Positions 13,939 to 49,051 of a stretch of 64,000 nucleotides of DNA are shown one piece after another. The notes under the pieces were generated by a model. The model worked only from the letters and a program-made list of their open reading frames with translations. It did no database searches and was not told the origin of the DNA. Position 1 is the stretch's first letter, and each line of letters begins with the position of its first letter. Origin of the DNA: a virus; the IMG/VR virus record IMGVR_UViG_3300010233_000008. The stretch is one strand, 5' to 3'. Both the position numbers and the translations under genes were made by a program.

Positions 13939-13939
13939 A

Positions 13940-14572: not shown

Positions 14573-16998
14573 TGGATAGGATCGCTATCATTCAGCTTTG
14601 CAGATTCGGAGATATAGTCTCAATTCTCCCGATTGCCAAATACTTATCAAAAGATAATGAAGTAACAATAATCTGTCATGAAGATTTTGCGGGAATACTT
14701 GATGCAGTTAGTTATGTAAAAGTACAAACATTAAGTACGCATCATAGGGATTTGGTTGGAGCGATTGCTAAGGCTAAATTAGAAGGATACGATCAAATAT
14801 TAGTTACTCAGAATATGGGTAACAATAATCGTATTCCTTATGAAACTGATAATTATCAATGTCAACAATGGGCAAGAGCCGGATTCCTAGATAAGTTTCA
14901 TGATCTACCTTTAATCTTCGATAAAAGAAATAAAGAATTTGAAAATAAAGCCCTAAAACTTTTCTTACCCAAAGAAGATGGACGCCCATTATTAGGCTAT
15001 TCCTTACATGGAATTAGTTCTATCTATCTAAGATGGAAGGAACAAGAAGATTGGATTAAAAAAACATTTGGCAAGACTCATAGATTGATGAATTTTGGCG
15101 ATATTTGTACGGGTCAAGTTCATAATCTTTTGGGATTAATTGAGAAGTGTGATAAGTTAATAAGTATCGACACACTTCATTTACACTTAGCTTATGCGAC
15201 GAATACTCCGACTATAGCTTTGGTTGACGATAATCCACAAAAAAGAAGTGAGCCAAGAAAACATTGGATAGAAAATGTAACCTATATTGAGAGTATTACC
15301 GATATAGGGCGAGAAAAAATAAGTAATGCAGTTTATGACAAACCAAAATTAGGACGATTTTCTAAATCTATTTTCGTTCCTAAACCCGAATCAGAAAATG
15401 ATAATCGGGTTGCCATAATTGAACTAGCTCGATATGGGGATATAGTTAATGTTTTACCTATAGCTTATGATCTCCATAAAAAAGGTAATGAAGTTCACTG
15501 GTTTGTTCATCCTAATTTTGCCGATATTTTAGAAGCCGTTTCTTATGTTAAGGTTCATAAATATGGAGGATCGGATAGGGATGTTCAGGGCACATCAGAT
15601 TATGCTAGAAAACTAGGATTTAAGCGAGTCTTAGAATTACAAGTTAATGGCAATAAATTACCTTCTCCGATTGAATGTGAAAATTTCATTACGCAAAGTT
15701 GGGCTAGAGGCGGATATTTAGATAAGTTTCACGAATTGCCTTTAGTGTTTGATGAAAGAAATATTGATTTTGAAAATGATGCGCAAAAGGGATTGCCATA
15801 TACCCACAAAAAGGAAACGATTGCCTATTCTCTTGAAAGTCATTCATCCCCAATGCCAGAAAATAAAAAATTTGAGCAATGGATAATCAAAGAATTTGGG
15901 GATAAATTTAATCTGTGGAATATTGGGATATTAAAGCTAAAAAAGCCTCAATATCTTATTGGTATGTTGGAAATTGCTGGTATATTGATTTCGGTTGATA
16001 CCCTTTCCCTTCACTTATCCTACGCAACTAATACTCCAGTAATCGCCCTCGCTCCCGACCATAACACTCAAAATTATAAAGAGCGTTATAAATGGTATCA
16101 AAGCGAACCAAGAAATAACTGGATTGAAAGAGTTACTTATACTGATGCCTTAGAGAAAAAAGGTCAAGACAAAATAATCGCTGCCGTAAATGGGAAAAGG
16201 GAATTTGGTAAACTTACTCGTTCATTTGAAAAGTTTAAGTTGGATCGAATAGTTCACGCCGTAGAATGGCATATCCCTCCCCAACAAGATGAAAGGCGTA
16301 GACTTTTATCCGCACATAAAACTTGGGAGTCAGCTAGAAATTCAGATAATTCTTGTAAATTAGTTATAGTTGATACGGATAAAGCTAAGCGAACAAGCAA
16401 AACAGAATTAGGAGATAATCGCACACTTCCTTTTCTCCATGATATAATTGAATCAGGAATAAAAGAGTGTCAGAAAAACGACATACTTCTTCTTACAAAT
16501 TCCGATATATGTTTAACTCCCGAAGTTTCTACAATAATTAGAGCTAAATTAGCTAAAGAACCATGCTGTTTTTCTCGAAGGATAGATGTTCAGAATGCGG
16601 ATATTCCTAAATCATTAAGAATGATTGCTGGAATAGAGCCTCATCCCGGAACCGATTTATTTGCTTTTAGAACTTCATGGTGGGAGAAAAGAAAGAAGGA
16701 TTTTCCTGATTTGCTTGCAGCTTGTGAGGGTTGGGATTTTGTATTTAGACATATAATGTTATGGGATAACCCGAAAGCAGAGATACAGCCACCAATTATT
16801 TATCATGAATTACACAGAGCATACTGGTATAGAGGAGACGTTATTAACTCAAACCCCGGACAAATCTACAATAGAGAACTCGGTAGAGAATGGGCAATCA
16901 AATACGGATATGATGACGCCCTTAATCCAGAATGCCAAGGTGGACTCTTCAAGCTCGACGGACATTTTAGTAGAAAAACTCCCACAAAAACTAGCTGA
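14572..16998 (+). CDS. three-domain glycosyltransferase: 2 x GT9 (heptosyltransferase-like) + C-terminal GT-A-like domain (808 aa)
   Basis: domain 1 IAIIQLCRFGDIVSILP ... SIDTLHLHLAYATNTPTIALV; domain 2 VAIIELARYGDIVNVLP ... SVDTLSLHLSYATNTPVIALA (GT9 N-terminal R.GD..P and C-terminal DTG.HLA.A...P motifs); third domain LVIVDTD...LLLTNSD. Confidence 0.7.
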   Translation: MDRIAIIQLCRFGDIVSILPIAKYLSKDNEVTIICHEDFAGILDAVSYVKVQTLSTHHRDLVGAIAKAKLEGYDQILVTQNMGNNNRIPYETDNYQCQQWARAGFLDKFHDLPLIFDKRNKEFENKALKLFLPKEDGRPLLGYSLHGISSIYLRWKEQEDWIKKTFGKTHRLMNFGDICTGQVHNLLGLIEKCDKLISIDTLHLHLAYATNTPTIALVDDNPQKRSEPRKHWIENVTYIESITDIGREKISNAVYDKPKLGRFSKSIFVPKPESENDNRVAIIELARYGDIVNVLPIAYDLHKKGNEVHWFVHPNFADILEAVSYVKVHKYGGSDRDVQGTSDYARKLGFKRVLELQVNGNKLPSPIECENFITQSWARGGYLDKFHELPLVFDERNIDFENDAQKGLPYTHKKETIAYSLESHSSPMPENKKFEQWIIKEFGDKFNLWNIGILKLKKPQYLIGMLEIAGILISVDTLSLHLSYATNTPVIALAPDHNTQNYKERYKWYQSEPRNNWIERVTYTDALEKKGQDKIIAAVNGKREFGKLTRSFEKFKLDRIVHAVEWHIPPQQDERRRLLSAHKTWESARNSDNSCKLVIVDTDKAKRTSKTELGDNRTLPFLHDIIESGIKECQKNDILLLTNSDICLTPEVSTIIRAKLAKEPCCFSRRIDVQNADIPKSLRMIAGIEPHPGTDLFAFRTSWWEKRKKDFPDLLAACEGWDFVFRHIMLWDNPKAEIQPPIIYHELHRAYWYRGDVINSNPGQIYNRELGREWAIKYGYDDALNPECQGGLFKLDGHFSRKTPTKTS

Positions 16999-19359: not shown

Positions 19360-22300
19360 ATGTCAAAATTAGACGACTTAAAACAAAAATTAAATAAAAA
19401 CAAACCGAAAAGGATGAAATTCGCCGGTCTTTCGGTCATAATCGAAAATCCCGTAGACAGTATAAGAAAAGGTGTAAATTCTAAAGGAAAAAGTTGGGCT
19501 ACTCGTCTTAGCCATCCTTATGGGTATCTGGAAAAAGGAGTCGGTGCGGACGGAGAACAATTGGATTGCTTTTTGGGTAATCATCCAGAAGCAAAAGATG
19601 TTTATATCGTGCATCAGAATTCGTTGGACGGCAAGTATGATGAGGATAAATGTCTGCTAGCATTCCCTTCCGCCGAAGAGGCAAAGAAAGCATACTTATC
19701 CAATTACGACACCTCCGATTATTTTCGATCAATGACAACTATTCCGATGAATAGTTTCAAGAAAATGCTTACTACCGAAAAACCCGGAAGCATTAAATGG
19801 ACTAGAAAGCAAAGAAGGAATCACAAATCGGAAGCGATGTTTTCAACCAATACCGAAAATTTTGATGCCGACACGAAAGAAAAATGGTTGACAATTGGCG
19901 GTCACTCTGGACCAGAAGGTAAGCATGAAGGCGGATCACATATAGAAATTTCTGGTGATGGAGATATTGAAAAAGGTCCACCCGATCTAAAAAATAAACC
20001 GATTAGTGACCTAAAATCTAAAATGTCTTCCAAAATTACTCCCGGTGTTCCCCAAATAAATTCCCCCAAGCCATCTTCCGCTCCCGCACCCAAAATAATT
20101 CCTAATTCCCAATACGATCTTAAAACCGGCAAGCAAATTAATTCCCAACCTACTCCTCAAAAGGTAGAAGCTAAGCCAATTCAACCTCCAGTCGAACATC
20201 CATTTTTCGATAAAAAAATAAATGATGTTGCCAAAACGGATCAGGATAACGACAAATGGTGGACCAAACCCAATCAAGTAAGCGACCCCAATAAATTAAA
20301 TCCAGTTCAGCAAGGACAAAAAAATATTGCTAACGATAAAGAATCGCAATCAGCAATGAAAAATTCGCATGATTTGAAAAATTTCGGTTGGGGGAAGATG
20401 GCTCAAGCTGGAAATGCTAATGCGGATAAAATAAATAATTTGGCTGCACAAAAAGGCATAACGGCGAATCAAGCCCAAAGTCAATTATCCCAAAATATTT
20501 CTCCCCAATTAGCTCAACAAAATTTACCTAATAAAAATGCTAGTGGAATTCCGGGGTCATCCCCGATTAATCAATCTCAGGATAATCCTACTCCTAGTTC
20601 AGTAAATCCCCCACAGGAGCAATTGCAACCTAATGTCGGTGCGCCAAAAGGACCAATAAACGATAAGCCTACAAATAAATCTCCCGAATCTTCATTATTC
20701 TATCCTCCCGGCAAATTCTTTCCGCCCTCCGAATCTAAAGCTCCAGTTAATGCTCCGCAAGTTCCTCCACAAGAATTATTAAGTGATAAACCTATGTCTG
20801 GAGTTCAGCGAATTACTCCCGATGATTTTGCTAAAGGATGGGATGGAATAGAAGGTTGGGTTGGAGCTAGAGATAATCCCGAACATGCTGAAAATATAGC
20901 TAAGGGATTAAATCAATTAGGTGATAGAGAGCATGCCGTAATGCAACATTCTAATGGCAAACATATAGTTGTTAGTAGACCAAAACAAGGTCAAGCGAAC
21001 CAAGGTTTAGGTCAGAATCAACTTAGTCAAACTCCCCCAGAACAAATTCAGCCTAATACCCAAATTCCTAATGAAGAAATGCAAGAGCAATTAGGATCAA
21101 CTGGTGCGGCAACTCCCGCCATCAATAATCCTAATGAAATAAAACAGCAAGAAAATAAACCCGCTTCGCAAGAGCCATTATTTGATAATCCAAAAACTCC
21201 ATCACAAGAACCGTTACCAGAGGAACCAGAACAAAAATTAGGTGGAGTTCAAGATTATAGTAAAGCCTCAATTGAACGCCAATTATTAGATCATTATCAA
21301 AAGAATGGTGGAAATGCTGACGATCAAGATGAAAAATTAACCTCAGCTTATCATTCCCCATTTACTTTTAGACGAACAAGTAAAACTAAATCAGGATTTC
21401 CCGGTGAAATAGATAGGATGCTAGAAGGTCCGAACGGTAAAAAATTAAGAAGGCTTTTAAGTCTAACCGATAATCCAGAATCTTCTCAAGGTGCGGATTT
21501 AATGGGAGATTTAGGGGTAGATGGATATGAGCAATTACTTAATAGAAAATTAGGTGGCAAGAAAAATACTACATTAAATTCCGCATTAGATTTTGCCAAG
21601 AAATCTGGCGATCCGCAAATGGAATTCTTGGCTAAGCTTCATAGTATAACTCCCGATAGGCAAGATAAGAAGCCACAAGAGGTTATAAATACTCAGGCAT
21701 TACAAACTGGCGAAGCTGCGACTATTCATGGTATTCCTGTTACTATTAATGAGGATGAAAATGGGAATAAATCTATAGATGATGGTGGACATTTGCCGAG
21801 CGTTCCGTTAGAATCTATGAAACAATTACCTATTGATAAGGGTAGTTTACATAATACGGAAGAGCCGGAAGTTGATGAAAGTCCATTTGCTCCCGATGAA
21901 TTAAATCCAGAGGAATTAAATGAAAAAACGGATGAAGAAAGTCAGCCCGAACCAAGTCAAGAAAATGCTCCGGTTGAGTCTTCCCAAGATAATTCTGGAC
22001 AAGAAAATGGAATTGACTCTGGAATTGGAGAAGAAAATCCAGAAATTAATAAAGATGAGCAAGGGAATCGACCCGATACAAATGTTAATCCCACAACGGA
22101 ATCTCCCGAAATTAATCCAAGCAATCAAATCGGGAAAAGTGAAGGGGAAAATAGGGATAGTGAATCTAAGCCTCAATCAATTCCTCCAATTAAATCAAAT
22201 AAATTAGAGGAAAAACCAAATGAAAAAATCCCCGAAAAAGAAAAGTCAAAAGCTGTCCCGCAACATTCAGAAACTACTAATGAATCCCATAAAGATTTGG

Positions 22301-23349
22301 GCAAAGAAAAACAAAATGTCGGTTCGTCTGATTCAAAAGAAAAAGTAAATGAAAGTCCGAAAGATAAACCAGCCCCACAGTCTCCGGTCACTTCTAATCC
22401 ACCGGCTAAAAATGAAGTTAAAGAAGAAAATCCCAAAGCTTCCGCGCAAATTCATCCTCCCTATAAACATCCATTAAGAGATATCTACGAAAAAGCTAAT
22501 CCGAGATCGCAACAAGCGTCTAAAGAGGCAAATAAAAGCGGAAATAAAGTAAATATTCAGGAATCCGGAATTCAGGCTCGCGGATCGGCAATGGGTTTGC
22601 ATGGAGCTAAAAAGCGTGAAGATGCAATCAATAACGCTATAAAACAATATGGTCCTACCGAAAAAGCAATGCAAGTTGCCGTTGCCAATAGTTATAGACA
22701 ACCATTAAGTAAATCAGAAAAACAATATTTTAAGGATTATGCGGAGTCTTTAGCCAAGAGCAAAAACCCTTCAACATCCGTTGAAACTCCCCCAAATAAT
22801 GAAACTGCAAAATCTCCCACTACATCAGAAATACCGGAAGTCGATAACACAAAACAACTAGGCTTATACGAAAAAGATAAATCTGGTAATCCCAAAGAAG
22901 TAGGAGAAAAACCCGGACAATCCAATTTATTCAACCCCAATAAATTTAAGACAGAAGAAAAACCCAAAGAAGAAAAAGTCGCCCCTCAATTTGACCCAAA
23001 ACATACACAAGAAATGTTCCCCAATAAGGAACAATCGAAACCTATAGATCAATTAAAAGAAAAGATGAATCCAGACAAGAATCCCGTCAAAATGTCGGGA
23101 TCGCCAATTGACCAATTAAAAGATAAAATGCAGAAAAATAAGGGGTCTGGATATGATATTAATGAAGACGATGGATATATAGAAATTAAGCGAAATGGAC
23201 AAACAATTGCGACCGGAACTAGACAGCCAAATGGCAAAATAGGGGATTTACAATATAAACATCCTGTACACCAAAAGTTAGATGCTATAAGAAATGCCGT
23301 GCAACGCGCAATTAATGAACACGAGAAAAATCCACCTAGTCTAAAATAA
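19360..23349 (+). CDS. giant protein: inorganic-pyrophosphatase-like N-terminal domain + ~1200-aa intrinsically disordered P/Q/N/K/E-rich region (1329 aa)
   Basis: N-domain SVIIENP..., SHPYGYL, GADGEQLDCFLG, DGKYDEDKCLLAFP align with family I PPase motifs (VVIEIP, YP.NYGYI, DGDP.DVLV, DEAGEDAKLVAVP); remainder low-complexity with short tandem repeats (PIDQLKEKM/PIDQLKDKM). Confidence 0.6.
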   Translation: MSKLDDLKQKLNKNKPKRMKFAGLSVIIENPVDSIRKGVNSKGKSWATRLSHPYGYLEKGVGADGEQLDCFLGNHPEAKDVYIVHQNSLDGKYDEDKCLLAFPSAEEAKKAYLSNYDTSDYFRSMTTIPMNSFKKMLTTEKPGSIKWTRKQRRNHKSEAMFSTNTENFDADTKEKWLTIGGHSGPEGKHEGGSHIEISGDGDIEKGPPDLKNKPISDLKSKMSSKITPGVPQINSPKPSSAPAPKIIPNSQYDLKTGKQINSQPTPQKVEAKPIQPPVEHPFFDKKINDVAKTDQDNDKWWTKPNQVSDPNKLNPVQQGQKNIANDKESQSAMKNSHDLKNFGWGKMAQAGNANADKINNLAAQKGITANQAQSQLSQNISPQLAQQNLPNKNASGIPGSSPINQSQDNPTPSSVNPPQEQLQPNVGAPKGPINDKPTNKSPESSLFYPPGKFFPPSESKAPVNAPQVPPQELLSDKPMSGVQRITPDDFAKGWDGIEGWVGARDNPEHAENIAKGLNQLGDREHAVMQHSNGKHIVVSRPKQGQANQGLGQNQLSQTPPEQIQPNTQIPNEEMQEQLGSTGAATPAINNPNEIKQQENKPASQEPLFDNPKTPSQEPLPEEPEQKLGGVQDYSKASIERQLLDHYQKNGGNADDQDEKLTSAYHSPFTFRRTSKTKSGFPGEIDRMLEGPNGKKLRRLLSLTDNPESSQGADLMGDLGVDGYEQLLNRKLGGKKNTTLNSALDFAKKSGDPQMEFLAKLHSITPDRQDKKPQEVINTQALQTGEAATIHGIPVTINEDENGNKSIDDGGHLPSVPLESMKQLPIDKGSLHNTEEPEVDESPFAPDELNPEELNEKTDEESQPEPSQENAPVESSQDNSGQENGIDSGIGEENPEINKDEQGNRPDTNVNPTTESPEINPSNQIGKSEGENRDSESKPQSIPPIKSNKLEEKPNEKIPEKEKSKAVPQHSETTNESHKDLGKEKQNVGSSDSKEKVNESPKDKPAPQSPVTSNPPAKNEVKEENPKASAQIHPPYKHPLRDIYEKANPRSQQASKEANKSGNKVNIQESGIQARGSAMGLHGAKKREDAINNAIKQYGPTEKAMQVAVANSYRQPLSKSEKQYFKDYAESLAKSKNPSTSVETPPNNETAKSPTTSEIPEVDNTKQLGLYEKDKSGNPKEVGEKPGQSNLFNPNKFKTEEKPKEEKVAPQFDPKHTQEMFPNKEQSKPIDQLKEKMNPDKNPVKMSGSPIDQLKDKMQKNKGSGYDINEDDGYIEIKRNGQTIATGTRQPNGKIGDLQYKHPVHQKLDAIRNAVQRAINEHEKNPPSLK

Positions 23350-24449: not shown

Positions 24450-24478
24450 TTGCAATTATTGCCGACTTATGTTACAAT
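24450..24478 (+). promoter_or_regulatory. sigma70-like promoter TTGCAA-17-TACAAT
   Basis: -35 24450-24455, -10 24473-24478, in divergent intergenic region. Confidence 0.45.
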
Positions 24479-24484
24479 CTGTAA

Positions 24485-24847
24485 GTGAAGAAAAAGAATT
24501 ATTATATTAAAAAGGGTTATGTTAAGAATTGCACCGATCCCAAGATAGAGTTATATGAATCTGGATTTAGGGCAATGTGTTTTCATGTCGCCTATAATCA
24601 TTTTTATCATTTAGTTGCTGACAATACTTTAAGGTTTGCATATGCTTTATGCCATTCTTCACTTCCCATTAAAGATAGGGAGACCGTTGAGGCGTGGTAT
24701 AAATGGAGCAAGGGAAAAACCATCAAAGAAATGATGAATCACGGTCACGAAATCCCTAAATCACTAAAACCTATCGTTAATTCTTATTTTTCAGCTATTA
24801 AGAAAAGAGCTAAAGAGAATAAAGAAGATGTGAATTATTTGTTATGA
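24485..24847 (+). CDS. hypothetical protein (120 aa, GTG start per ORF track)
   Basis: ORF preceding GT-sulfotransferase gene with 4-nt overlap. Confidence 0.4.
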   Translation: MKKKNYYIKKGYVKNCTDPKIELYESGFRAMCFHVAYNHFYHLVADNTLRFAYALCHSSLPIKDRETVEAWYKWSKGKTIKEMMNHGHEIPKSLKPIVNSYFSAIKKRAKENKEDVNYLL

Positions 24848-26190
24848 ACCCGACAATTTGCTTCGTTACTACTTGCAAAAATCGCGCAAATCATATTAAG
24901 GAATGCTTGCCCGCGAATCTGGCAGACAATACCGATCCAAATCATAAATTCATCCTTTTAGATTATAATAGTCAAGATGATCTTATTGATTATCTTAAAT
25001 CTAATCATCAAAAAGATATAAATTCAGGGAGATTAGTAGTTTATAGTTTTAAGAGTCACGGACCATTTAGAATGGCTCATGCCAAAAATATGGCACACCG
25101 TTTAGGTATTCTAGAGGGCGGCAACATATTAGTTAATCTTGATGCTGATAATTTTACTGGTAAGGAATTTTCGACTTATATTCAGGAAAAATTTAAGCAA
25201 GATAATATATTCTTATGGGCAAAAAGGATTATAGGTCAAGCTCATACTAGAGGAACCTCTGGGCGTATCGGGGTATCTTCTAAATCCTTTATTCTGGCTG
25301 GAGGATACGATGAAAAGTATAATACTTGGTCTCCTGACGACAAAGACTTCAACGCTAGATTATGTCGCTTAGATTTTGTTCCTATTGAGATTGATCCTAA
25401 ATTCTTAAAAGCTAAAGTTCATAACGACAATATTAGATTTTCAGAGTATAAACATATTGATCTTGACGAACAAGAAGAAGAATCATTAAGAATCGGAGAT
25501 TCCGATCATACCATAGCTAATTTTGGCAGGATCGGATGTGGTACGGTTTATAAGAATTTCTCTAATGAACCAATAAATATAGACCCAATTCCAACTAGAA
25601 TATTTGGGATAGGGATGCACAAGACAGCGACCACTTCCCTAAATAAAGCATTTAAGATTTTAGGTTATCATTCCGCACATTGGAAATCTCCGCAATGGGC
25701 TAGAAATATTTGGGATGAAATACATAAATTTGGTAAATCCAGAACATTAGAAAAATATTATGCGCTATGCGATTTACCTATCACCTTACTCTATCAATCA
25801 TTGGATATAGCTTATCCCGGAAGTAAATTCATTCTTACTATCAGGGATGAAAATCAATGGCTGGAAAGCGTTAAGAATCATTGGGATTATGATCTAAATA
25901 TTTATAGAGAGAGTTGGGATAATGATGCCTTTACGCATAGAGTTCACAGTGAATTATATGGTAGGAAAATGTTCGATGTGGAAATTTTTATCAAGAGATT
26001 TCGTAGGCATAATGATGAAGTAAGAAATTATTTTAAAAATCGTCCACAAGATTTACTTGTTTTGGATATAGATAAAAAAGATAAGTGGGGAAAACTTTGT
26101 CCATTTTTGAATGTGGGAATACTGAATATTTCTTATCCGGAAGAGTTCAATACGGATAAAAGGGTAAAATTTTTAGCAGAAAATATTTAA
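24844..26190 (+). CDS. fusion protein: GT-A glycosyltransferase (DXD) + sulfotransferase domain (448 aa)
   Basis: N-half ICFVTTCKNR...LVNLDADNF (GT-A/GT2-like DXD); C-half GMHKTATTSL (5'-PSB PKSGTT-like, catalytic Lys) and ILTIRDENQWLESV (3'-PB RD...S motif) of PAPS sulfotransferases. Confidence 0.55.
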   Translation: MNPTICFVTTCKNRANHIKECLPANLADNTDPNHKFILLDYNSQDDLIDYLKSNHQKDINSGRLVVYSFKSHGPFRMAHAKNMAHRLGILEGGNILVNLDADNFTGKEFSTYIQEKFKQDNIFLWAKRIIGQAHTRGTSGRIGVSSKSFILAGGYDEKYNTWSPDDKDFNARLCRLDFVPIEIDPKFLKAKVHNDNIRFSEYKHIDLDEQEEESLRIGDSDHTIANFGRIGCGTVYKNFSNEPINIDPIPTRIFGIGMHKTATTSLNKAFKILGYHSAHWKSPQWARNIWDEIHKFGKSRTLEKYYALCDLPITLLYQSLDIAYPGSKFILTIRDENQWLESVKNHWDYDLNIYRESWDNDAFTHRVHSELYGRKMFDVEIFIKRFRRHNDEVRNYFKNRPQDLLVLDIDKKDKWGKLCPFLNVGILNISYPEEFNTDKRVKFLAENI

Positions 26191-27011
26191 TGAAAACACT
26201 TACAAATAATGCTGGTCAAAAATTCAAATTAGGTAGAATTCAGCCTTCTACTCGTCGGCTTGGTTTGTCGATGAAGGATTTACTTTCTGCAAATGTATTA
26301 CCACAAATAACTTTGCCAACATCTACTAATTATGGGGCGAAGGCAACGCAGTCGCTAAATAATATTTATTTGAACGGAAGCCTTTCGGATTGCGTTGTGG
26401 CGTGCGGATTCCATTGCGATGGTGTTACGTCTGGGAACAATGGCAGCGAAGTTTTGTATACCGATGCCCAAGTAATCCAGAATTATAGTGCAATCGGTGG
26501 CTATAATCCAAATGCCCCATTGGTTAGCGGAGAAAACGAAAGCGATAATGGTTGTAGCGAAGAAGTTGCAATCTCATATTGGGAAGCAAACGGTTTTCCT
26601 TCCGGAAGATGGCTAAAACGCGCTATTACCTTAGACCCTAATAATATTGAAGAAATCCGTACGGCCTTATATCTATTTGAAAATATTTGCTTCAATATAA
26701 ATTTACCCGATGCTTGGATTGATCCATTTCCTTCTGGCAATAATTTTGTTTGGGGAAAAAATGGCGAACCGGATCAAATGAACGGGCATAGTTTTTTGGG
26801 CTATGATATTTTAGCTAATGGAAATTTAGCGATAGACACTTGGGGAATTTTGGGAGAAATAACTCCAGAAGCAATAAGCTATTACGGTAATTGGAGTCAA
26901 GGGGGACAATTATTTACTTTCCTTTTGCCAGATATGTTCTACAGATTGTCGAAGAAAAGCCCAATTGGGTATGATGAAAATATCCTGATAGATTTTTTGA
27001 ATAAGCTCTAA
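26190..27011 (+). CDS. hypothetical protein, possible Cys/His peptidase-like (273 aa)
   Basis: start overlaps previous stop (ATGA); candidate catalytic SDCVVACGFH ... NGHSFLGYD ... DTWG; weak. Confidence 0.4.
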   Translation: MKTLTNNAGQKFKLGRIQPSTRRLGLSMKDLLSANVLPQITLPTSTNYGAKATQSLNNIYLNGSLSDCVVACGFHCDGVTSGNNGSEVLYTDAQVIQNYSAIGGYNPNAPLVSGENESDNGCSEEVAISYWEANGFPSGRWLKRAITLDPNNIEEIRTALYLFENICFNINLPDAWIDPFPSGNNFVWGKNGEPDQMNGHSFLGYDILANGNLAIDTWGILGEITPEAISYYGNWSQGGQLFTFLLPDMFYRLSKKSPIGYDENILIDFLNKL

Positions 27012-27781: not shown

Positions 27782-27853
27782 GCCGGTGTAGCTCAGAGGT
27801 AGAGCCGCGATTTTGTAAATCGCAGGTCATAGGTCCGAATCCTATCGCCGGAT
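27782..27853 (+). tRNA. tRNA-Thr (anticodon TGT)
   Basis: manual cloverleaf: acceptor GCCGGTG, D-stem GCTC/GAGC, anticodon stem GCGAT/ATCGC, loop TTTGTAA, T-stem ATAGG/CCTAT; G1-A72 mismatch; no encoded CCA. Confidence 0.75.
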
Positions 27854-27910: not shown

Positions 27911-27983
27911 TCTATGTTATGCGAGTGTAACTCAATAGGTAGAGTGTCGGATTTCCAATCCGGTTGTTGTCAGTTCGATTCTG
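27911..27983 (+). tRNA. tRNA-Gly (anticodon TCC)
   Basis: manual cloverleaf: acceptor GCGAGTG/CATTCGC, D-stem ACTC/GAGT, anticodon stem TCGGA/TCCGG, loop TTTCCAA, T-stem GTCAG/CTGAC, T-loop TTCGATT. Confidence 0.85.
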
Positions 27984-28008
27984 ACCATTCGCTCTAGGAG
28001 TAAAAAGT

Positions 28009-29866: not shown

Positions 29867-30397
29867 ATGCCGTCAACTCCAAATTTAATTTTACAATATT
29901 TTTGCTTAGGAATTATTGCAAAATTAGGAATTGATAGTCAAAGTTGTTTCCCGTCTATAACTCCGGCTTTAGATTTAGGTTGGGAAGGGGATGTACAAAT
30001 TCAAGTATGTCCCGGAAGCGCTGCTCCCGATGGCGGGGGCAAGGGAAATCAAGATGGTGGAGCATTAATAATCAGACAAAATTTTAATCTGATAGTATTT
30101 TATAGATTAAATATTGATCCTCATGGAAGATCGGATCAGATATTAACTCAAAATGCTACGGGATTAACGGATTTTGTAGAAAAAATGAAAGATATATTCT
30201 TAAATACATATCTAAATAATATGTCGATTGAAAGAATAAGGTATGAAGGGGAAACACAACCAGTATGGACCGATGCCGAAAGAGGGATCGTTCAGAAACA
30301 AGTAACTTATTCGGCTAATTATGGTAGGGATTTGCCCGGAATAACTTTGACTAATCAGGATATAGTTAGCCAGATAATTACGGCGAAATCGCCTTAA
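29867..30397 (+). CDS. hypothetical tail-region protein (176 aa)
   Basis: ORF; no recognisable motif. Confidence 0.45.
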   Translation: MPSTPNLILQYFCLGIIAKLGIDSQSCFPSITPALDLGWEGDVQIQVCPGSAAPDGGGKGNQDGGALIIRQNFNLIVFYRLNIDPHGRSDQILTQNATGLTDFVEKMKDIFLNTYLNNMSIERIRYEGETQPVWTDAERGIVQKQVTYSANYGRDLPGITLTNQDIVSQIITAKSP

Positions 30398-31056
30398 TCA
30401 TTAGCTGCGGGGTTATGGTTGTTCGTTATCCATCTTTTAGTTGTTAATGCTTCTTCGTCGGACATTTTAAGTTTATTTTTCCTTTTTGTAATTGTACTTC
30501 TGCTTAATCCAGTAATTTCAACCCATTCTGACACACATTTTGTTTCGCCATTTAGGGTTAGATTAAAGTTGTTTTTCTTGTTTCTATTTTGTTCCGTAGA
30601 AGTTGCCCACACGCAATTATCGGGATCATAATTTCCATTACTGTTTTTACGTTCGATGCTGTATTTATTCGATGGACGTTCTCCCATATCCTCTAGAAAA
30701 TTTTCAAAAGATTGCAGCCATCTTTCACATACACGGATTCCGCGTCCCCCATAATCTTTGAAGTTTGCCGCAGTGGGATTGCCGCAGCGATGTTTCATTG
30801 CCTTCCATATTTTATAGGTGGTTGTTTGTGACATATTATGCGTTGATCTAGATTTGCAAATTTCTATTTTGTGGCATCCGCACGATACAATTTTTCCTAA
30901 TTTTAGATTACTTCCATAACAAAATATATGTTCGTTTGGATTGCAATCACAAACGCAATCCCACATAGGCTTTCCTTCCGAATTATTAAACGTAGCTCGT
31001 TTAATCACCGTTAATTTCCCAAACTTCATTCCCGACAAATCCACAAATTTTCCCAT
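30394..31056 (-). CDS. free-standing HNH-family homing endonuclease paralog A (220 aa)
   Basis: N-term FGKLTV...W.C.CDC...SCGC zinc motif; core YGGRGIRVCERWLQSFENFLEDMGERP...SIERKNSNGNYDPDNCVWAT..EQNRN; C-term LNGETKCVSEWVEITGLSRSTI HTH; antisense to tail genes. Confidence 0.65.
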   Translation of the reverse strand: MGKFVDLSGMKFGKLTVIKRATFNNSEGKPMWDCVCDCNPNEHIFCYGSNLKLGKIVSCGCHKIEICKSRSTHNMSQTTTYKIWKAMKHRCGNPTAANFKDYGGRGIRVCERWLQSFENFLEDMGERPSNKYSIERKNSNGNYDPDNCVWATSTEQNRNKKNNFNLTLNGETKCVSEWVEITGLSRSTITKRKNKLKMSDEEALTTKRWITNNHNPAAND

Positions 31057-32339: not shown

Positions 32340-33047
32340 CTATTTCATTAGGTGGAATGGAATAGATTTTTCTGTTTTCTTTTTAGGAGTAGTTAATGCT
32401 CTTTCTGGTGCCCATCCAGCAATTCTTATTCTAGTCCATACCAAATCATAACTCATGCCTAAAAATTCACACCATTCGGTTAGTTCCATTGTTTTGTTAC
32501 CAATTGTAATTTTTTCGATAGAATTTTCTCGATTATGATTTTGAATTTTTGCTGTAGCCCACACACAATTTTCTTTATCATAATTACCGTTTCTATTTTT
32601 TCTTTCTATTGAATGCTCGGAAGACGGACACGGACCAATATCCTCATAAAAGTTTTGGAAAGACTCTAGCCATCTATCGCACATTTTAATTCCTCTCCCA
32701 CCATATCTAAGATAATTTGGAGAATTTTTATTGAGACAGCGAGTTTTTATTCCTACCCAACAATAGTATTCCTTGCTGTTCTTTTTGGTGTGCCTTGTAT
32801 GGCCATGAATTAAATTTGCTTTTATTCTACTTTCCCTCATTAGACATCCACAAGATTTAACCGAACCAAACCGCAAATTTCCGCCGTCAACTATTTTATT
32901 GGTATTGCCGCAATCGCAATTACAAAACCATTTGCTTTTAGTTCTATTTTTTGATTCATTGTCTACCCTCGAAACTACTAGGAGCCGCCCAAATCTTTTT
33001 CCGGTTAAATCTATGAATGTTGCCATATTAAACCTAACATATACCAA
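32340..33047 (-). CDS. free-standing HNH-family homing endonuclease paralog B (235 aa; alternative start 33026)
   Basis: same architecture as A: FGRLLV..WFCNCDCG..SCGC; YGGRGIKMCDRWLESFQNFYEDIGPCP...SIERKNRNGNYDKENCVWAT..QNHNR; C-term HTH. Confidence 0.65.
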   Translation of the reverse strand: MVYVRFNMATFIDLTGKRFGRLLVVSRVDNESKNRTKSKWFCNCDCGNTNKIVDGGNLRFGSVKSCGCLMRESRIKANLIHGHTRHTKKNSKEYYCWVGIKTRCLNKNSPNYLRYGGRGIKMCDRWLESFQNFYEDIGPCPSSEHSIERKNRNGNYDKENCVWATAKIQNHNRENSIEKITIGNKTMELTEWCEFLGMSYDLVWTRIRIAGWAPERALTTPKKKTEKSIPFHLMK

Positions 33048-33068: not shown

Positions 33069-34343
33069 ATGGGAATAAATTATAGCGAATTGTGGCCAGC
33101 ACTTGGTTCCCTTGTAAAATGGTCAAACGCTTTTATTTCCTATCAAGGCAATCAATTGATGGGAAATAGCGGCGAATTGACTGACGTACAAACCGTCTTT
33201 GAAAGTTATAATCTAAATTTAATTCCTTCTTTTACCACCCAAGTTTCTGGTCAAGCTAACGCTATGGCTGGATGGATATCTGCCTTAACCAATATCTTTA
33301 ACACTGTTTTAGCTTCTCTTCAATCTCAACTAAACGCTCCAAACAATAACAGCCAAACAATCCTACCATTATTATATGCCAGCATGGTCTCGTCCACGGA
33401 GACTATGTTGGCTACAACTATTTCTGCACCCAGCATAACCGTAGGATCAAATACCGGAAATGGTGTACTACTTCTATCTATTAATAATAACTTGGGTCAG
33501 GTAGATCAAAGAATTATTAATGAAACAGTACAATTGGTGTGTACTAACGATCAATTTTCCGGTACGGCTGCTGGATCGGAACGATTTTCTATTACGGGAT
33601 TCCCTACACAGCAACCTACCTCTTATCTCCCTCAAGGTAATGGAAATGGTCCCAATCTAACGGTTGCAGATTCAAATAATCTAATTAATAATGGTAATTT
33701 TGAGTCATGGACCAATACAAATACTCCTAATAATTGGGTGACTACTGGTACAGTGGGCACTAACATATTACAAAGTACAACTGCTCATTCTGGAAGTTTT
33801 GCTTTAGAATTTGCTGGGGATGGGACAACTACAAATATTAATGTTTCACAAAATGTTTTTAGTAGATTAAATACCACTACTATTTATGGAATGAGTGTTT
33901 GGTTAAGAAAAGCTGGTACGGTTTCAGGTGGCTCTAATCTAGCAGTTAATCTAACTGGTACGGGGTTTTCTACCATCAACTTATTTAATGCTGATCCGGC
34001 GACATTAACTACAAGCTATCAACAATTTCATATTTATTTCCCAACTGGGATTGAATTTGGAAATAATATGGCGGTTGAGGCAAATTGGACAAGCGCTAAT
34101 TCTGCTGGAGGATCGGCGGTAATTTTAATTGATGATTTTGTATTAAATACTGCAAATTCATTTGGCAATGTTCAGTATAGTATTTATCGCGGTTCAACTG
34201 ATTTCTTAAAAGGTGATAATTTTAGTGTAGTTACGGCGGTAAATTCACCAGCTATTTGGAGTAGTTATTTTGCAAGATTCTATAATTTTCAAATGCCAAC
34301 TGTGGCATCGTCGCCAAGCGTAGCCGAATCGCTTGCGGAATGA
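33069..34343 (+). CDS. tail fibre / receptor-binding protein with CBM-like domain (424 aa)
   Basis: N-terminal Ser/Thr/Asn-rich beta region; central NLINNGNFESW..NWV..G and later GDG..TN motifs typical of carbohydrate-binding modules in phage fibres. Confidence 0.55.
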   Translation: MGINYSELWPALGSLVKWSNAFISYQGNQLMGNSGELTDVQTVFESYNLNLIPSFTTQVSGQANAMAGWISALTNIFNTVLASLQSQLNAPNNNSQTILPLLYASMVSSTETMLATTISAPSITVGSNTGNGVLLLSINNNLGQVDQRIINETVQLVCTNDQFSGTAAGSERFSITGFPTQQPTSYLPQGNGNGPNLTVADSNNLINNGNFESWTNTNTPNNWVTTGTVGTNILQSTTAHSGSFALEFAGDGTTTNINVSQNVFSRLNTTTIYGMSVWLRKAGTVSGGSNLAVNLTGTGFSTINLFNADPATLTTSYQQFHIYFPTGIEFGNNMAVEANWTSANSAGGSAVILIDDFVLNTANSFGNVQYSIYRGSTDFLKGDNFSVVTAVNSPAIWSSYFARFYNFQMPTVASSPSVAESLAE

Positions 34344-34963
34344 GCCTTTGGTATAAATTTTGGCGTTACAATTGCTTTTTCTATAGACCATCCACGGTAA
34401 AGTCTGCTACTAATCGTTTGTCTATCAATTCCAATTTCTTCCGCCCAATCAGTTAGACATTGGGTTTTTCCATTAAATGTAATCATTCTGTTTCTAGAAT
34501 AATTTCTTAATTGTTCTCTTTTTGTTGTCCACCGGCAATTATCTTTTTCATAATTTCCGTTATTGTCAATACGATCTATACTTAATCCTTCCGGTTTTTC
34601 GCCCATATCTTCTAAAAAGTTTTCAAATGATTCCCGCCATCTTTGGCAAACACTAATTCCGCGTCCGCCATATTTTGGATATGATTTTTGTGCTGGATTT
34701 GTGCAGCGATTTATCATATTTGCCCATATCATATATGTTTTACTTTTCTTTTTACCGATTGCATGTCCATGAGACAATGGGTTGGTATATCCATTTAATT
34801 TTCTCAAACATCCACATGATTTTGTACGTCCGTGAATTAATCTGCTTCCCATAACGATAGTTTTTTTGCCGCACTCACATTGACAAAACCAAAAAGCATT
34901 GCCGTTGTATGTGACATCATAATTTCTACTTACAACAGTTAGTTTTCCAAATTTCTGTCCCAT
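34289..34963 (-). CDS. free-standing HNH-family homing endonuclease paralog C (225 aa from ATG 34963; ORF track 35074)
   Basis: MGQKFGKLTVVSR aligns with starts of A and B; YGGRGISVCQRWRESFENFLEDMGEKP...SIDRIDNNGNYEKDNCRWTT; start 34963 avoids overlap with 35050 gene. Confidence 0.65.
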   Translation of the reverse strand: MGQKFGKLTVVSRNYDVTYNGNAFWFCQCECGKKTIVMGSRLIHGRTKSCGCLRKLNGYTNPLSHGHAIGKKKSKTYMIWANMINRCTNPAQKSYPKYGGRGISVCQRWRESFENFLEDMGEKPEGLSIDRIDNNGNYEKDNCRWTTKREQLRNYSRNRMITFNGKTQCLTDWAEEIGIDRQTISSRLYRGWSIEKAIVTPKFIPKAHSASDSATLGDDATVGI

Positions 34964-35049
34964 TACGTTTTTAACTTTTCTCACAATAAATCCTTTCAAT
35001 AAAATTATGAAACATAACATTATTATAACAAGAAAAACTTTTAAGTCAA

Positions 35050-38000
35050 ATGCCTGATACATACCAAGAGACAATTCGCCTTCGGGTTGAGGTGGATTCC
35101 TCTGACGTGGGGAAGGCTGTTCAATCCGAACAACAAAGAGCTAATCAAAGATTAAGACAACAATCATCTATTCCTCAATCTCCAAATTTAGGTCGTTCCG
35201 GCGGATTAAATTGGGATCAAATGAGGGGAGTATTTGGAGCTACAAATACTTTATCTGGATTTTTAGGCGGCGGTAGAAATATATTTGGTATTCCTCAATA
35301 TCAAATGATGAGTATGTCTAGGATGTTCGGGGGAATGGGGCATCCAAGTGCATCACATTATCAAAGTATTCGTGCCTCAGAAATAAATAGAATGGCGCGT
35401 GAGGCGGCACAAGCCAGAACAACTAGACCCGGCGTTACTCCGCAAGCTATTGCTTCCGAAACTAAAGCATATTTTGAAACACTAAAAGGATTGAGGCAAA
35501 CTGCCGAACAAATAATTAAAGGATCATTGGCTAGCGGTAAATTAATATTACCAATGACAATGGGTGGTCCTAAATTTGATGCCGCAAGTCAAGCCTATAA
35601 AGATTTGGCTCAATCAATGGGTTATTCTGTTGGAGATTTTCAAAAGAGTGGTCCCTTTTCTCAAGCTTCAATCGGGGCATTGGGCGGAAAATCACAAAAA
35701 TTTGGTAAATCCGATGAAGATAAAGCTTTAATAGAAGAGGAAAAAAAGAGATTAGTATCGGAAGAAATTAAAAAGAAGGTCGAAGCCGATAAAAAAATTG
35801 CCGAACAAGCCATGAAGGCTGCTGCGACTGGAGCTAAATTTGTTGGCGGAATAGAAATAGCTGCTTCCGTAGCTATTCAAATGGGTCAAGTTCTAAAATC
35901 CATTTCTAGTTCATTATCTAATTTCGCTGCTTCGTTTGCTACTGGCGATGTTAGTAAGGCAATGCACGGAGTAGTTGACGCTTTACAGGGTATAGCTCAT
36001 GGAATAGGAGCGGGAACTAGCGCAATAGTTGGGTCTATAGGATTAGTTATTGGTTCGGCATTTGGTCCTATAGGAACAATGATTGGTGCTGCTGCTGGAG
36101 CATTAGTAGGCAATATATTAGGTGGGGCTTTATCTGCTGTAGCTGGATTATTTAATACTTTCATAACAGCTATGGATTCATTGGTAAATAATCTATCCAA
36201 ATGGAATCCTTCATTAGCCGCAATGAATGCCCAACTAAATATCCAAACTATTCTATTTCAAAGACAAATGAGTTATGCCATGCAACCCGCATTATTGGCA
36301 TGGATTCATTTGAAAGAAGTAATCTTAGATAAACTTATATCCTATGCCCCACAAATTAATGCTTTAGCTAATTGGATAGCTAATTTAATTACTGGAATAA
36401 TTAATCTTGCTGGAGAAATATCAGCATGGATAAATGTTATTGTTACTGTAGCAAAAGTTATATATAAATTCCTGATTGCTCCGATATTGGAATTCGGAAA
36501 TATTATAAATATATTATTAAAGCCGGTTAGATGGCTTATTGATTTATTTGGTGGGTTGGGGCATTATATGGAATTGCTTTTCAATCCTATTATAACTTTA
36601 ATTGGTGATTTTGTTGATTTGGGTGGAGGGATAACGAAAATTACTGTAGATTTATTGGATGCCTTTGGATTATTTATTAATGCACTTGCTAATGCTGCGG
36701 ATGAAATGGGTCAGAATGATATAGCAGTATCTCTTGGAAAATCAGCAAATGAACTGATTGATGCTGCATCAAAATTATCTCAAGCTGCAAATCCTCAAAG
36801 TCTTAGTCCTGATGAATTAGCAAAACAAGCGGAAGAATGGGGTAAGGCGTTTATGAATTCATTGGGAGATTTTGCTAAAGCAAATGGTTCTGGTGGTATA
36901 GATAAAAGTAGACCATTGGGGGCAGCACTTCATGGATTAATTGGTGGAAATGTTAGCGGTGGAAATAGTAATGTTCAAACTCCATTAAGTAATATTGGTG
37001 GTGCGGTAGGTGGATTTAATATTGCCGCAAATACCATGATTCAAGCCGCAAACGTAATGGTTGGAGCGGCAAATGTTAATGCTATTGCTGCTGGGGTCAA
37101 TGCCGTAGCCAAGAAATTTAATCCAAATAATCCAGCCGGAGCTACAGCAAAACAAATAGCTGCCGCTAATTTTATTGCCCAAGGTCATGGAAAATATAAC
37201 GTAGATTTTGGATCGCTTTCACAGAATCAATATTCTGCCGGAATTAGCGGTGGGGTGGATATTGGCAATATTCCAAGTCATCGATGGTTTAAAGATAAAA
37301 TATACAAAACTCCGTGGAGTACCGCTTTTGGCTCTCGCAATAGATTAAAATATCCGGGATATCTACCATATGATCAATGGGCTGATATAGTTGGCGCTTC
37401 GCAAGGAACGGGTCTAGGAAAATATCCGGATACCGGATCAACTATTGGTGCTATGGGGTCTAAATATGGATCAAGCGGATCATATTCTGATTCTGGAAAT
37501 ATAGTCGGAGCAATGGGTAATAAATATGGTGGATCAGATTTATCTTCCGGGTTTATGACTTTTCAGCAATGGAGAGTGAGAAAACTTCAACGTGCCGGAC
37601 AAAAGAATCTTAAAGGTCAAAATATAGATGATCCTGATTATTCGGGAGTTGATCCAAATTTAGTTTGGGCATATAAATTAAGAAATAAGTTTGGAATTGA
37701 TGGCAATCCCGGAAACTTACAAGTTCCCCCAAGCGATCTACTCGCCGCATTGCATTATTGGCATACCCAAATGGTACAAGATGCGGGAAGCAGCAGATGG
37801 GATAATGACAGCTTACAGTGGAATGCTGCATTTAAGGCGTATTATGGGCATGATGAACTAGCTGGTTTCGGGGCTACTCCGGGAAGCCCCGCCGATATTG
37901 CCGCTCAAAAAAAATATGGCAATAGTACATCACCAACGACTCAACCCTCAACCCCTAGCGACGCCTTCATTCAATCCATAGGCGGTAAGGTTACTCCAGC

Positions 38001-46577: not shown

Positions 46578-46771
46578 CTACCTTTACCTCAACTTCTTAC
46601 GCAAATTCCCACAGCGAATCCATTCAAGAGTCATATTTTAATCCTTGGACTAATTTCCAAACCTATCAAGAGCCAAACAAAGATAAATCAATTTGCACTT
46701 GCTCTAAACAGGAATTAATGGTTGCGGGATGTAATTGTGGGCATATTAAAAGATATTCGGAGAAAAGGTGA
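46574..46771 (+). CDS. hypothetical Cys-containing protein (65 aa)
   Basis: ATGA-coupled small ORF. Confidence 0.35.
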   Translation: MTTFTSTSYANSHSESIQESYFNPWTNFQTYQEPNKDKSICTCSKQELMVAGCNCGHIKRYSEKR

Positions 46772-48950: not shown

Positions 48951-49051
48951 AAATTACCTTATTGCCGGAAATAGGATTTGCACCTATACGCTCCGAAGAG
49001 CAAATCATTTTAAATGATTCTTGTCTGCTAATTTCAACATTCCGGCTTAAT

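What the first reader, a model, noticed from the sequence alone, without database searches (positions are those of the whole stretch)
24844..26190. Glycosyltransferase-sulfotransferase fusion protein in a phage
The N-terminal half has a GT-A DXD signature (LVNLDADNF). The C-terminal half carries both PAPS-binding motifs of cytosolic/carbohydrate sulfotransferases (5'-PSB GMHKTATTSL with catalytic Lys; 3'-PB TIRDENQWLES). Phage-encoded sulfotransferases are rare. A fused GT-ST implies synthesis of a sulfated sugar, plausibly part of the same glycan pathway as the GT9/MTase genes.
Basis: seen in the sequence. Interest (0 to 1): 0.7.

Follow-up and report, generated by a model that had tools for sequence, protein, structure and literature searches.

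The report
Phage glycosyltransferase–sulfotransferase fusion enzyme
An uncultured tailed phage encodes one soluble protein that joins a sugar-adding enzyme to a sulfate-adding enzyme; the same fusion is common in viral metagenome contigs but has never been studied, which suggests phages make sulfated sugar decorations on an unknown target.

Summary

The window is a tailed phage. The fusion is absent from 50,697 deposited phage records, yet it has 1,347 homolog clusters in metagenomes and about 40 IMG/VR contigs. It is effectively virus-restricted.

Recurring neighbours are a papain-like peptidase (about a quarter of carriers, including this window) and APS kinase (three carriers; none here). 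Related sulfotransferase domains are fused to CysQ-like PAP phosphatases and to other glycosyltransferases.

A link to the window's GT9/methyltransferase genes is not supported, and the acceptor is unknown. Verdict: a new, unstudied architecture built from known enzyme families; moderately high interest.

The parts
24844..26190 (+). Gene for the 448-aa GT-A / Sulfotransfer_4 fusion protein. It is soluble, with no predicted transmembrane segment.
   Evidence: ORF; Pfam; model with pLDDT 89.3; fold hits; maximum 19-residue hydropathy 0.87.
24844..25443 (+). GT-A (GT2-like) glycosyltransferase domain, aa 1-200.
25135..25152 (+). N-L-D-A-D-N, the DXD metal/nucleotide-sugar motif (D100, D102).
   Evidence: N98, D100, A101, D102 and N103 are invariant in 50 homologs.
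25327..25350 (+). W-S-P-D-D-K-D-F acid cluster (D165, D166, D168). This is the likely catalytic-base region; H193 (25420-25422) is also invariant.
   Evidence: P164, D165, D166, D168, F169 and H193 are invariant. The region is covered by the weak Glyco_transf_7C hit. The catalytic role is inferred.
25444..25593 (+). Conserved inter-domain segment, aa 201-250: a low-confidence loop and helix followed by a beta-hairpin.
   Evidence: pLDDT is 54-63 for aa 191-220, then above 90. G228 and G231 are invariant, and N226, G233, V235 and N238 are at least 90% conserved. pTM 0.89 implies a fixed domain arrangement.
25594..26154 (+). Sulfotransfer_4 (PAPS-type) sulfotransferase domain, aa 251-437.
25603..25641 (+). 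F-G-I-G-M-H-K-T-A-T-T-S-L, the 5'-phosphosulfate-binding P-loop.
   Evidence: G255, G257, T261, T263 and S265 are invariant; K260 is at least 90% conserved. It aligns with G-A-G-L-P-R-T-G-T-N-S of the schistosome SULTs.
25768..25779 (+). C-D-L-P. D310 is the predicted acceptor-hydroxyl-binding or base residue.
   Evidence: D310 and P312 are invariant. D310 aligns with the Asp of T-T-D-L-P in SmSULT (SEQRES 93). SmSULT Asp91 hydrogen-bonds the accepting hydroxyl (PMC4618941). The two-residue numbering offset is inferred.
25837..25872 (+). T-I-R-D-E-N-Q-W-L-E-S-V, the 3'-phosphate-binding motif (R334, S342).
   Evidence: T332 is invariant; R334 and S342 are at least 90% conserved. It aligns with L-T-I-R-D-x-x-x-W-L-x-S of SmSULT and ShSULT.
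26190..27011 (+). Downstream 273-aa papain-like (C1-type) cysteine peptidase whose start codon overlaps the fusion's stop; the one recurring partner gene.
24485..24847 (+). Upstream 120-aa ORF of unknown function, first gene of the three-gene unit.
   Evidence: ATGA overlap with the fusion start. No Pfam or PADLOC hit. No homolog in any other fetched locus.
24450..24478 (+). Promoter-like site (TTGCAA-17-TACAAT with TG) in the divergent intergenic region ahead of the three-gene unit.
   Evidence: Consensus scan only. The region as a whole is not enriched for such sites, so this is weak.

Best explanation
The gene encodes a soluble, cytoplasmic, bifunctional enzyme of an uncultured tailed phage. 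The N-terminal GT-A (GT2-like, DXD/metal-dependent) domain transfers a sugar from a nucleotide-sugar donor to an acceptor. The C-terminal Sulfotransfer_4 domain then moves sulfate from PAPS onto a hydroxyl of that sugar or of the same acceptor. The product is a sulfated, anionic glycoconjugate made during infection. PAPS would come from the host here; some related phages carry their own APS kinase next to the fusion. Shown: both folds, conservation of both sets of catalytic and cofactor residues, the virus-restricted distribution, and the recurrent partner genes. Inferred: that both domains are active, the order of the two steps, that they share one acceptor, and the identity of the acceptor. 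My committed guess for the acceptor is a protein, most likely one of the phage's own structural proteins (about 0.35). A host envelope glycan precursor comes next (about 0.2).
Against: No activity, donor or acceptor has been measured. The GT half only just reaches one Pfam cutoff and misses another. The window has no APS kinase or CysQ-like gene, so PAPS must come from the host, whose identity and PAPS metabolism are unknown. The best structural matches of the GT half are polysaccharide polymerases (K4CP, PmHS2, CHSY3, GlfT2), not protein glycosyltransferases. Other GT homologs sit in polysaccharide-type contexts: L015 with OpgC and GT47, L071 with UDP-galactopyranose mutase and further GTs. 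Ser/Thr-rich ORFs occur within +/-10 kb of the fusion in only 1 of about 45 other carriers. Most neighbourhoods are early or replication genes rather than structural genes.
Confidence: 0.7

Rival explanations
1. One reading: the fusion works in one virion-glycan pathway with the window's GT9-like protein, the FkbM and SAM methyltransferases and the GT34-like protein, building a methylated, sulfated glycan on structural proteins.
For: The window holds an unusual number of glycan-type genes inside its structural modules: FkbM MTase 13279-13938, MTase 13940-14572, GT9-like 14572-16998, GT34-like 44754-46577 and MTase_24 46768-47484. A Ser/Thr-rich 991-aa protein lies at 41769-44744.
Against: The fusion sits in a separate three-gene unit about 8 kb from the first group and 18 kb from the second. 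The 808-aa GT9-like protein and the two adjacent methyltransferases have no homolog in the flanks of any other carrier, and the GT34-like protein appears in only one (L003/L004). The fusion therefore travels alone.
Confidence: 0.15
2. Host-envelope modification: the enzyme glycosylates and sulfates a cytoplasmic-face precursor of a host surface polymer (teichoic acid, LPS, capsule or EPS). This would change receptors and so block superinfection or alter adsorption, as the prophage enzyme TarP does for wall teichoic acid.
Against: No integrase or lysogeny gene was found in the ORFs scanned. No membrane anchor is predicted. The recurring partner is a peptidase, not a glycan-pathway enzyme. Carriers span many host GC contents, which fits poorly with one specific host polymer.
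Confidence: 0.2
3. A RiPP-like or protein-maturation module: a peptide or protein substrate is glycosylated and sulfated by the fusion and then cut by the adjacent papain-like peptidase.
Against: No homologous precursor is found in any phage locus. The upstream 120-aa ORF is not conserved elsewhere. Most carriers lack the peptidase, and the peptidase family also occurs without the fusion. The Cytophagales evidence comes from one bacterial lineage at about 35% identity.
Confidence: 0.12
4. An activating sulfotransferase: the sulfate is installed as a leaving group for elimination or substitution, as the PDB title describes for SgdX2 and as happens with oxamniquine sulfate. The final product would then not be sulfated.
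For: SgdX2, titled 'bacterial activating sulfotransferase', and the schistosome SULT-OR are among the closest solved relatives. The sulfate ester of oxamniquine decays spontaneously (PMC4618941).
Against: No partner enzyme that would use an activated intermediate is conserved near the fusion. Repeated fusion of this ST clade to glycosyltransferases and to further sulfotransferases fits stable decoration better.
Confidence: 0.08
5. DNA hypermodification: the enzyme glycosylates, and possibly sulfates, a modified base in phage DNA to evade restriction.
For: In several carriers the fusion lies among replication genes: DnaB and RecA in L080, and a 529-aa C5 DNA methylase 3 kb away in L081. Phage DNA glycosyltransferases are an established class (preprint 10.1101/2023.12.21.572611, listed).
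Against: None of the roughly 40 window ORFs scanned against Pfam matched a hydroxymethylase, TET/JBP-type or DNA methyltransferase family. No known DNA glycosyltransferase appeared among the top structural matches.
Confidence: 0.05

Closest known systems
Sulfotransfer_4 (PF17784) enzymes: Schistosoma SULT-OR (4MUA, 5TIV), Streptomyces Cpz8 (9KF1/9KF2) and SgdX2 (8Y9P)
   Different: The solved enzymes are single-domain and share only 21-28% identity. SULT-OR acts on the small-molecule drug oxamniquine; from my own knowledge, Cpz8 acts on polyketide pyrones. None is fused to a glycosyltransferase, and none is viral.
GT2-type GT-A glycosyltransferases: K4CP chondroitin polymerase, PmHS2 heparosan synthase, SpsA, GlfT2 and the prophage-encoded TarP
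   Same: GT-A fold, a DXD motif and a downstream acidic cluster. TarP shows that phages do carry soluble GT-A enzymes that decorate host polymers (own knowledge).
   Different: Only 10-19% identity to any solved GT. Pfam GT2 models are matched only at or below their cutoffs. The donor, acceptor and stereochemistry are unknown. None of these enzymes carries a sulfotransferase domain.
NDST, the bifunctional heparan sulfate N-deacetylase/N-sulfotransferase
   Same: One polypeptide couples a sugar-modifying domain to a PAPS sulfotransferase domain, so two consecutive steps occur on one glycan (own knowledge; paper PMC10864358 listed).
   Different: NDST is a eukaryotic Golgi membrane protein. Its first domain is a deacetylase, not a glycosyltransferase, and its sulfotransferase belongs to a different family. 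This is an analogy, not homology.
Sulfotransferase genes reported as viral auxiliary metabolic genes, and putative sulfotransferases of giant viruses
   Same: Virus-encoded sulfotransferase genes have been noted at the annotation level (PMC8290583; PMC11625862).
   Different: Those are list entries with no architecture, distribution or mechanism. Searches for 'phage-encoded sulfotransferase', 'phage sulfotransferase', 'viral sulfotransferase' and 'virus-encoded sulfotransferase' found no paper.
Glycocin-type peptide glycosyltransferases (SunS-like) and their gene clusters
   Different: The phage loci have no such precursors or exporter. SunS is a weaker structural match than the polysaccharide synthases.

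Membership tests
Sulfotransfer_4 (PF17784, S. mansoni-type PAPS sulfotransferase) | Matches the family HMM above the curated gathering score | tested here: met
   104.7 bits against a cutoff of 22.8, E 8.2e-30, model positions 1-208 of 215.
Sulfotransfer_4 (PF17784, S. mansoni-type PAPS sulfotransferase) | Sulfotransferase (P-loop alpha/beta) fold superimposable on solved members | tested here: met
Sulfotransfer_4 (PF17784, S. mansoni-type PAPS sulfotransferase) | 5'-phosphosulfate P-loop and 3'-phosphate Arg/Ser motifs present and conserved | tested here: met
   G255, G257, K260, T261, T263, S265, R334 and S342 are invariant or at least 90% conserved. They align with the SmSULT and ShSULT motifs.
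Sulfotransfer_4 (PF17784, S. mansoni-type PAPS sulfotransferase) | Acceptor-hydroxyl-binding Asp (SmSULT Asp91) | tested here: met
   The invariant D310 aligns with the T-T-D-L-P Asp. The role of Asp91 is taken from PMC4618941. The numbering offset is inferred.
Sulfotransfer_4 (PF17784, S. mansoni-type PAPS sulfotransferase) | PAPS-dependent sulfate transfer | not testable with these tools
   Needs an enzyme assay. Indirect support: APS kinase neighbours and CysQ-like fusions in the same ST clade.
   Sulfotransfer_3 scores 15.5 bits against a cutoff of 27. Sulfotransfer_1 has no hit at E <= 1.
GT-A fold glycosyltransferase, GT2-like | GT-A fold | tested here: met
GT-A fold glycosyltransferase, GT2-like | DXD metal/nucleotide-sugar motif | tested here: met
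   D100-A-D102 is invariant in 50 homologs.
GT-A fold glycosyltransferase, GT2-like | Matches a GT2 family HMM above its gathering score | tested here: inconclusive
   PF10111 scores 27.6 against 27.3, only just met. PF00535 scores 20.3 against 23.3, not met. PF02709 scores 14.2 against 23, not met.
GT-A fold glycosyltransferase, GT2-like | Catalytic base in the acidic motif after the G-G-[FY]-D-E segment | tested here: inconclusive
   G153-G154-Y155-D156-E157 ... W162-S-P-D165-D166-K-D168 is conserved. I did not verify residue-level superposition on a known catalytic base.
GT-A fold glycosyltransferase, GT2-like | Glycosyl transfer from a nucleotide sugar; identity of donor and acceptor | not testable with these tools
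   Needs a biochemical assay.
Glycocin / RiPP peptide glycosyltransferase system | A precursor peptide with a leader and a dedicated exporter or leader peptidase in the same locus | tested here: not met
   These are present beside the cellular GT homologs L016, L018 and L021. No homologous precursor or C39-ABC exporter is found in the window or any phage locus. The window has only a papain-like peptidase.
Known anti-phage defence systems (PADLOC) | Match to a defence-system protein model | tested here: not met
   No PADLOC hit for the fusion, its two operon partners or two nearby ORFs.

The most novel reading that the evidence does not exclude
Tailed phages from many host groups carry a self-contained enzyme that builds sulfated sugars on proteins, either on their own virion proteins or on host targets. 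This would give phages a sulfated glycome that nobody has looked for. In a quarter of lineages the enzyme is paired with a papain-like peptidase as a two-enzyme protein-maturation module, and some phages bring their own APS kinase to secure the sulfate donor.
Probability: 0.3. Interest if true: 0.8.

Novelty: new variant of a known kind. Interest (0 to 1): 0.6.

Why it matters
As far as the searchable literature shows, sulfation has not been studied in phage biology; the known viral sulfur genes are assimilation genes such as cysC and cysH. This family is conserved, virus-restricted and has more than a thousand members. It keeps both active sites and sometimes travels with a PAPS-making kinase, which argues that phages deliberately make sulfated glycoconjugates. 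If so, sulfate would add a strongly anionic surface chemistry that could affect adsorption, mucus or matrix binding, immune recognition or defence evasion. The enzyme could also serve as a compact one-protein glyco-sulfation tool. The question is directly testable with recombinant protein.

Tried and rejected
1. NCBIfam gave no hit for the fusion. PHROGs gave only a weak hit to a family of unknown function. PADLOC gave nothing.
2. Exact-sequence look-ups of the fusion and of the identical peptidase P0121 found no record, so the sample of origin stays unknown.
3. tblastn of the major capsid protein against deposited phages found nothing, and the portal gave only about 22% identity hits, so no cultured relative or host could be assigned.
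4. Single-sequence locus searches were too narrow. The alignment-based APS-kinase scan recovered only the contig already known. The reverse test, how often phage APS kinases sit next to sulfotransferases, therefore could not be done.
5. No APS kinase or CysQ-like gene is present in the window.
6. I looked for a conserved neighbourhood. Only the peptidase recurs (9-13 loci); all other clusters occur in 5 loci or fewer, apart from HNH endonucleases.
7. I tested whether Ser/Thr-rich proteins are a conserved neighbour. They are not: 1 of about 45 carriers.
8. I tested whether RiPP precursors like those beside the Cytophagales GT homologs occur in phage loci. None do.
9. I tested whether the ~250-aa gene downstream of the cellular GT homologs is a split-off sulfotransferase. 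It is not: no ST-domain match and no Pfam hit.
10. The literature search for 'SgdX2' returned only unrelated papers.
11. DNA modification was considered and set low: no matching genes among the ORFs scanned.

Full report
OBSERVATION. The window has one uninterrupted ORF at exactly 24844..26190 on the plus strand, 448 aa. The ATG overlaps the stop of an upstream 120-aa ORF (ATGA). The TAA overlaps the ATG of a downstream 273-aa ORF (TAATG). The three genes therefore form a tight plus-strand unit behind a divergent intergenic region that has promoter-like sites. That scan is weak evidence: it found 23 sites against 18.5 expected.

THE TWO DOMAINS. Pfam places aa 252-433 in Sulfotransfer_4 (PF17784) at E 8.2e-30, 104.7 bits against a cutoff of 22.8, covering almost the whole model. 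The N-terminal half is weak by sequence models: Glyco_tranf_2_2 27.6 against 27.3, Glycos_transf_2 20.3 against 23.3, and Glyco_transf_7C 14.2 against 23.

ACTIVE-SITE CONSERVATION. The 50 homologs are 54-64% identical to the window protein.
- GT half: N98, D100, A101, D102 and N103 (the DXD motif) are invariant. So are G154, Y155, E157, P164, D165, D166, D168 and H193.
- ST half: G255, G257, T261, T263 and S265 are invariant, with K260 at least 90% conserved (the 5'-phosphosulfate P-loop). D310 and P312 are invariant. T332 is invariant, and R334 and S342 are at least 90% conserved (the 3'-phosphate motif).
- K260 aligns with an Arg in the schistosome enzymes (G-A-G-L-P-R-T-G-T-N-S).
- D310 aligns with the Asp of T-T-D-L-P in S. 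mansoni SULT, SEQRES position 93. Asp91 of that enzyme hydrogen-bonds the accepting hydroxyl (PMC4618941). The two-residue offset is my inference.
- The segment between the domains is not a plain tether. After a low-confidence loop it forms a beta-hairpin with invariant G228 and G231.
- The protein has no transmembrane segment.

IS IT A PHAGE? Yes. The window encodes a portal (phrog_113, E 1e-21), a Mu-F-like minor head protein, a virion structural protein (phrog_1731), a weak major-head match, a head-tail adaptor (phrog_195; Pfam Mu Gp36), three HNH homing-endonuclease paralogs and three tRNAs. It has no close cultured relative.

DISTRIBUTION. Among 50,697 deposited phage records there is one hit, and it covers the GT half only. 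The metagenome protein collection holds 1,347 clusters at E <= 1e-3, and the top 120 are all full-length fusions. IMG/VR holds about 40 full-length loci, on contigs of up to 230 kb.

Among 185,579 species-representative genomes only one locus is full length (L008). It is 99.4% identical to an IMG/VR viral contig. The other 20 cellular hits are stand-alone GT homologs. The fusion is therefore effectively virus-restricted.

Carrier contigs span 36-67% GC, and gene GC follows flank GC (r = 0.96). The gene is thus an old resident of many phage lineages and is under strong purifying selection.

NEIGHBOURS. Clustering all ORFs in about 45 carrier loci shows no conserved neighbourhood except one gene: the homolog of the window's downstream 273-aa ORF. 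A profile search finds it within about 1 kb of the fusion in 13 of 52 loci, about 11 of 46 distinct. It lies upstream or downstream, and once on the opposite strand.

APS kinase, which makes PAPS, lies within two genes of the fusion in L001/L002 and L037, with a partial match in L029. The window has no APS kinase or CysQ-like gene.

In other carriers the fusion sits among small early or replication genes such as DnaB, RecA, sigma-like factors and a C5 methylase.

THE WIDER ST CLADE. The ST domain alone has 5,716 representative relatives at E <= 1e-3. After the fusions come many stand-alone proteins of about 200 aa at about 40% identity, and then other architectures. Partner domains are Inositol_P (the family that includes CysQ PAP phosphatases) in three proteins, GT2 in two, GT1 in one, a methyltransferase in one, and further sulfotransferase domains. 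Fusion to a PAP-removing enzyme supports PAPS use. Repeated, independent fusion to glycosyltransferases supports a glycan-linked role.

WHAT IS THE ACCEPTOR? This is not resolved.
- Pointers toward a protein or peptide: the peptidase partner; the window's own 991-aa protein with up to 88% Ser/Thr per 50 residues; and three Cytophagales genomes where the GT homolog lies beside a C39-ABC exporter, HlyD, an outer-membrane efflux protein and precursors with a double-glycine leader and CYTPP-repeat cores.
- Pointers toward a polysaccharide or lipid-linked glycan: the best structural matches are polymerases. Other GT homologs sit with OpgC and GT47 (L015), or with UDP-galactopyranose mutase and more GTs in a viral contig (L071).
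- No RiPP precursor occurs in phage loci, and Ser/Thr-rich ORFs are not a conserved neighbour.
- None of the roughly 40 window ORFs scanned against Pfam matched a DNA-modification family.

MECHANISM I COMMIT TO. This is a soluble bifunctional enzyme. The GT-A domain adds a sugar from a nucleotide sugar, and the Sulfotransfer_4 domain sulfates that sugar or the same acceptor using PAPS. My confidence in this chemistry is 0.7. My best guess for the acceptor is a protein, probably a phage structural protein (about 0.35), followed by a host envelope precursor (about 0.2). Both activities, the order of the steps and the acceptor are inferred, not shown.

The GT9-like, FkbM, SAM-methyltransferase and GT34-like genes are real. 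However, they lie 8-18 kb away in other gene groups. The 808-aa GT9-like protein and the two adjacent methyltransferases have no homolog in the flanks of any other carrier, and the GT34-like protein appears in only one. A shared pathway is possible in this phage, but nothing here supports it.

COMPARISON WITH WHAT IS KNOWN. Both domain families are well known. Viral sulfotransferase genes have been listed as putative auxiliary genes (PMC8290583), and putative ones are noted in giant viruses (PMC11625862). I found no paper describing a phage sulfotransferase or this architecture. NDST is a functional analogy, not a relative. I rate this a new variant of a known kind.

LIMITS. No biochemistry was done. 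The host and the sample are unknown. Only +/-10 kb flanks of the carriers were examined. The reverse co-occurrence test, starting from phage APS kinases, failed for technical reasons.

Noticed in passing
L001:11416-13230: The papain-like peptidase homolog next to the fusion is interrupted by an intein of about 330 aa, placed exactly before the catalytic Cys. The N-extein ends ...LGD, the intein starts with C-L-V-P-D and ends with T-H-N, and the next residue is the Cys that aligns with C68. This supports C68 as the active-site nucleophile.
   Followed up: partly
window 26190-27011: A phage-encoded papain-like (C1-type) cysteine peptidase that no Pfam model detects (phrog_19005, function unknown). 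The fold match is to xylellain and procathepsins, with invariant N62, C68, H200 and the D-T-W motif.
   Followed up: yes
window 41769-44744: A 991-aa protein in the tail module with long Ser/Thr tracts (up to 88% per 50 residues) and no Pfam or PHROG hit. Directly after it come a 607-aa protein with a GT34-like C-terminal domain (44754-46577), a Methyltransf_24 protein (46768-47484) and a dual-specificity phosphatase (47786-48193). It is a possible mucin-like glycosylated fibre.
   Followed up: partly
window 13279-16998: An FkbM-type methyltransferase, a SAM methyltransferase and an 808-aa protein with a GT9 (heptosyltransferase) match sit directly after the head-tail adaptor gene, inside the head module.
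   Followed up: partly
window 30394-31056, 32340-33047, 34289-35074 (all minus strand): Three paralogous HNH homing-endonuclease genes (phrog_374, E 2e-63 for the first) are inserted on the opposite strand within the plus-strand tail module. Homologs occur in 8-9 other fetched phage loci.
   Followed up: partly
window 19360-23349: A 1329-aa protein with an N-terminal InPase domain (PF18823, E 1.7e-36) followed by more than 1,000 residues of low-complexity, P/Q/N/S/K/E-rich sequence. An InPase protein and a PhageMetallopep protein also lie near the fusion in L003.
   Followed up: no
L016:2784-10305; L018:7995-12182; L021:6735-10209: These Cytophagales loci look like an undescribed RiPP cluster. 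The precursors have a double-glycine leader (..EEVKGG|TFG..) and Cys/Thr/Pro-rich cores with CYTPP repeats and an FSFSFG tail. Beside them are a GT2-like enzyme, a conserved ~250-aa partner with no Pfam hit, a C39-ABC exporter, HlyD and an outer-membrane efflux protein.
   Followed up: partly
L071:4395-9792: A viral contig (61 kb, 61% GC) carries UDP-galactopyranose mutase, then at least two stand-alone homologs of the fusion's GT domain in tandem, then a 692-aa GT2 + TOD1/MUCI70-like protein. This is a phage galactofuranose-type glycan cluster.
   Followed up: no
L003:8764-9876: An IS605 OrfB/TnpB-type gene (with the Cas12f1-like TNB domain) lies directly upstream of the fusion gene on a 114,382-bp contig. 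A contig of the same length appears in two NCBI assemblies with the gene at different positions, which suggests a complete, circularly permuted phage genome.
   Followed up: no
window 51538-52422 (minus strand); tRNAs at 27782-27853, 27921-27994 and 48963-49046: The phage encodes an SPFH/Band_7 protein and tRNA-Thr(TGT), tRNA-Gly(TCC) and tRNA-Leu(TAA). The first two tRNAs lie just downstream of the fusion operon.
   Followed up: no
L077:5012-9020: Contigs that carry the peptidase homolog without the fusion have a 615-aa Ser/Thr-rich ORF (74% per 50 residues) about 1 kb away on the opposite strand. It is unclear whether this is meaningful.
   Followed up: no
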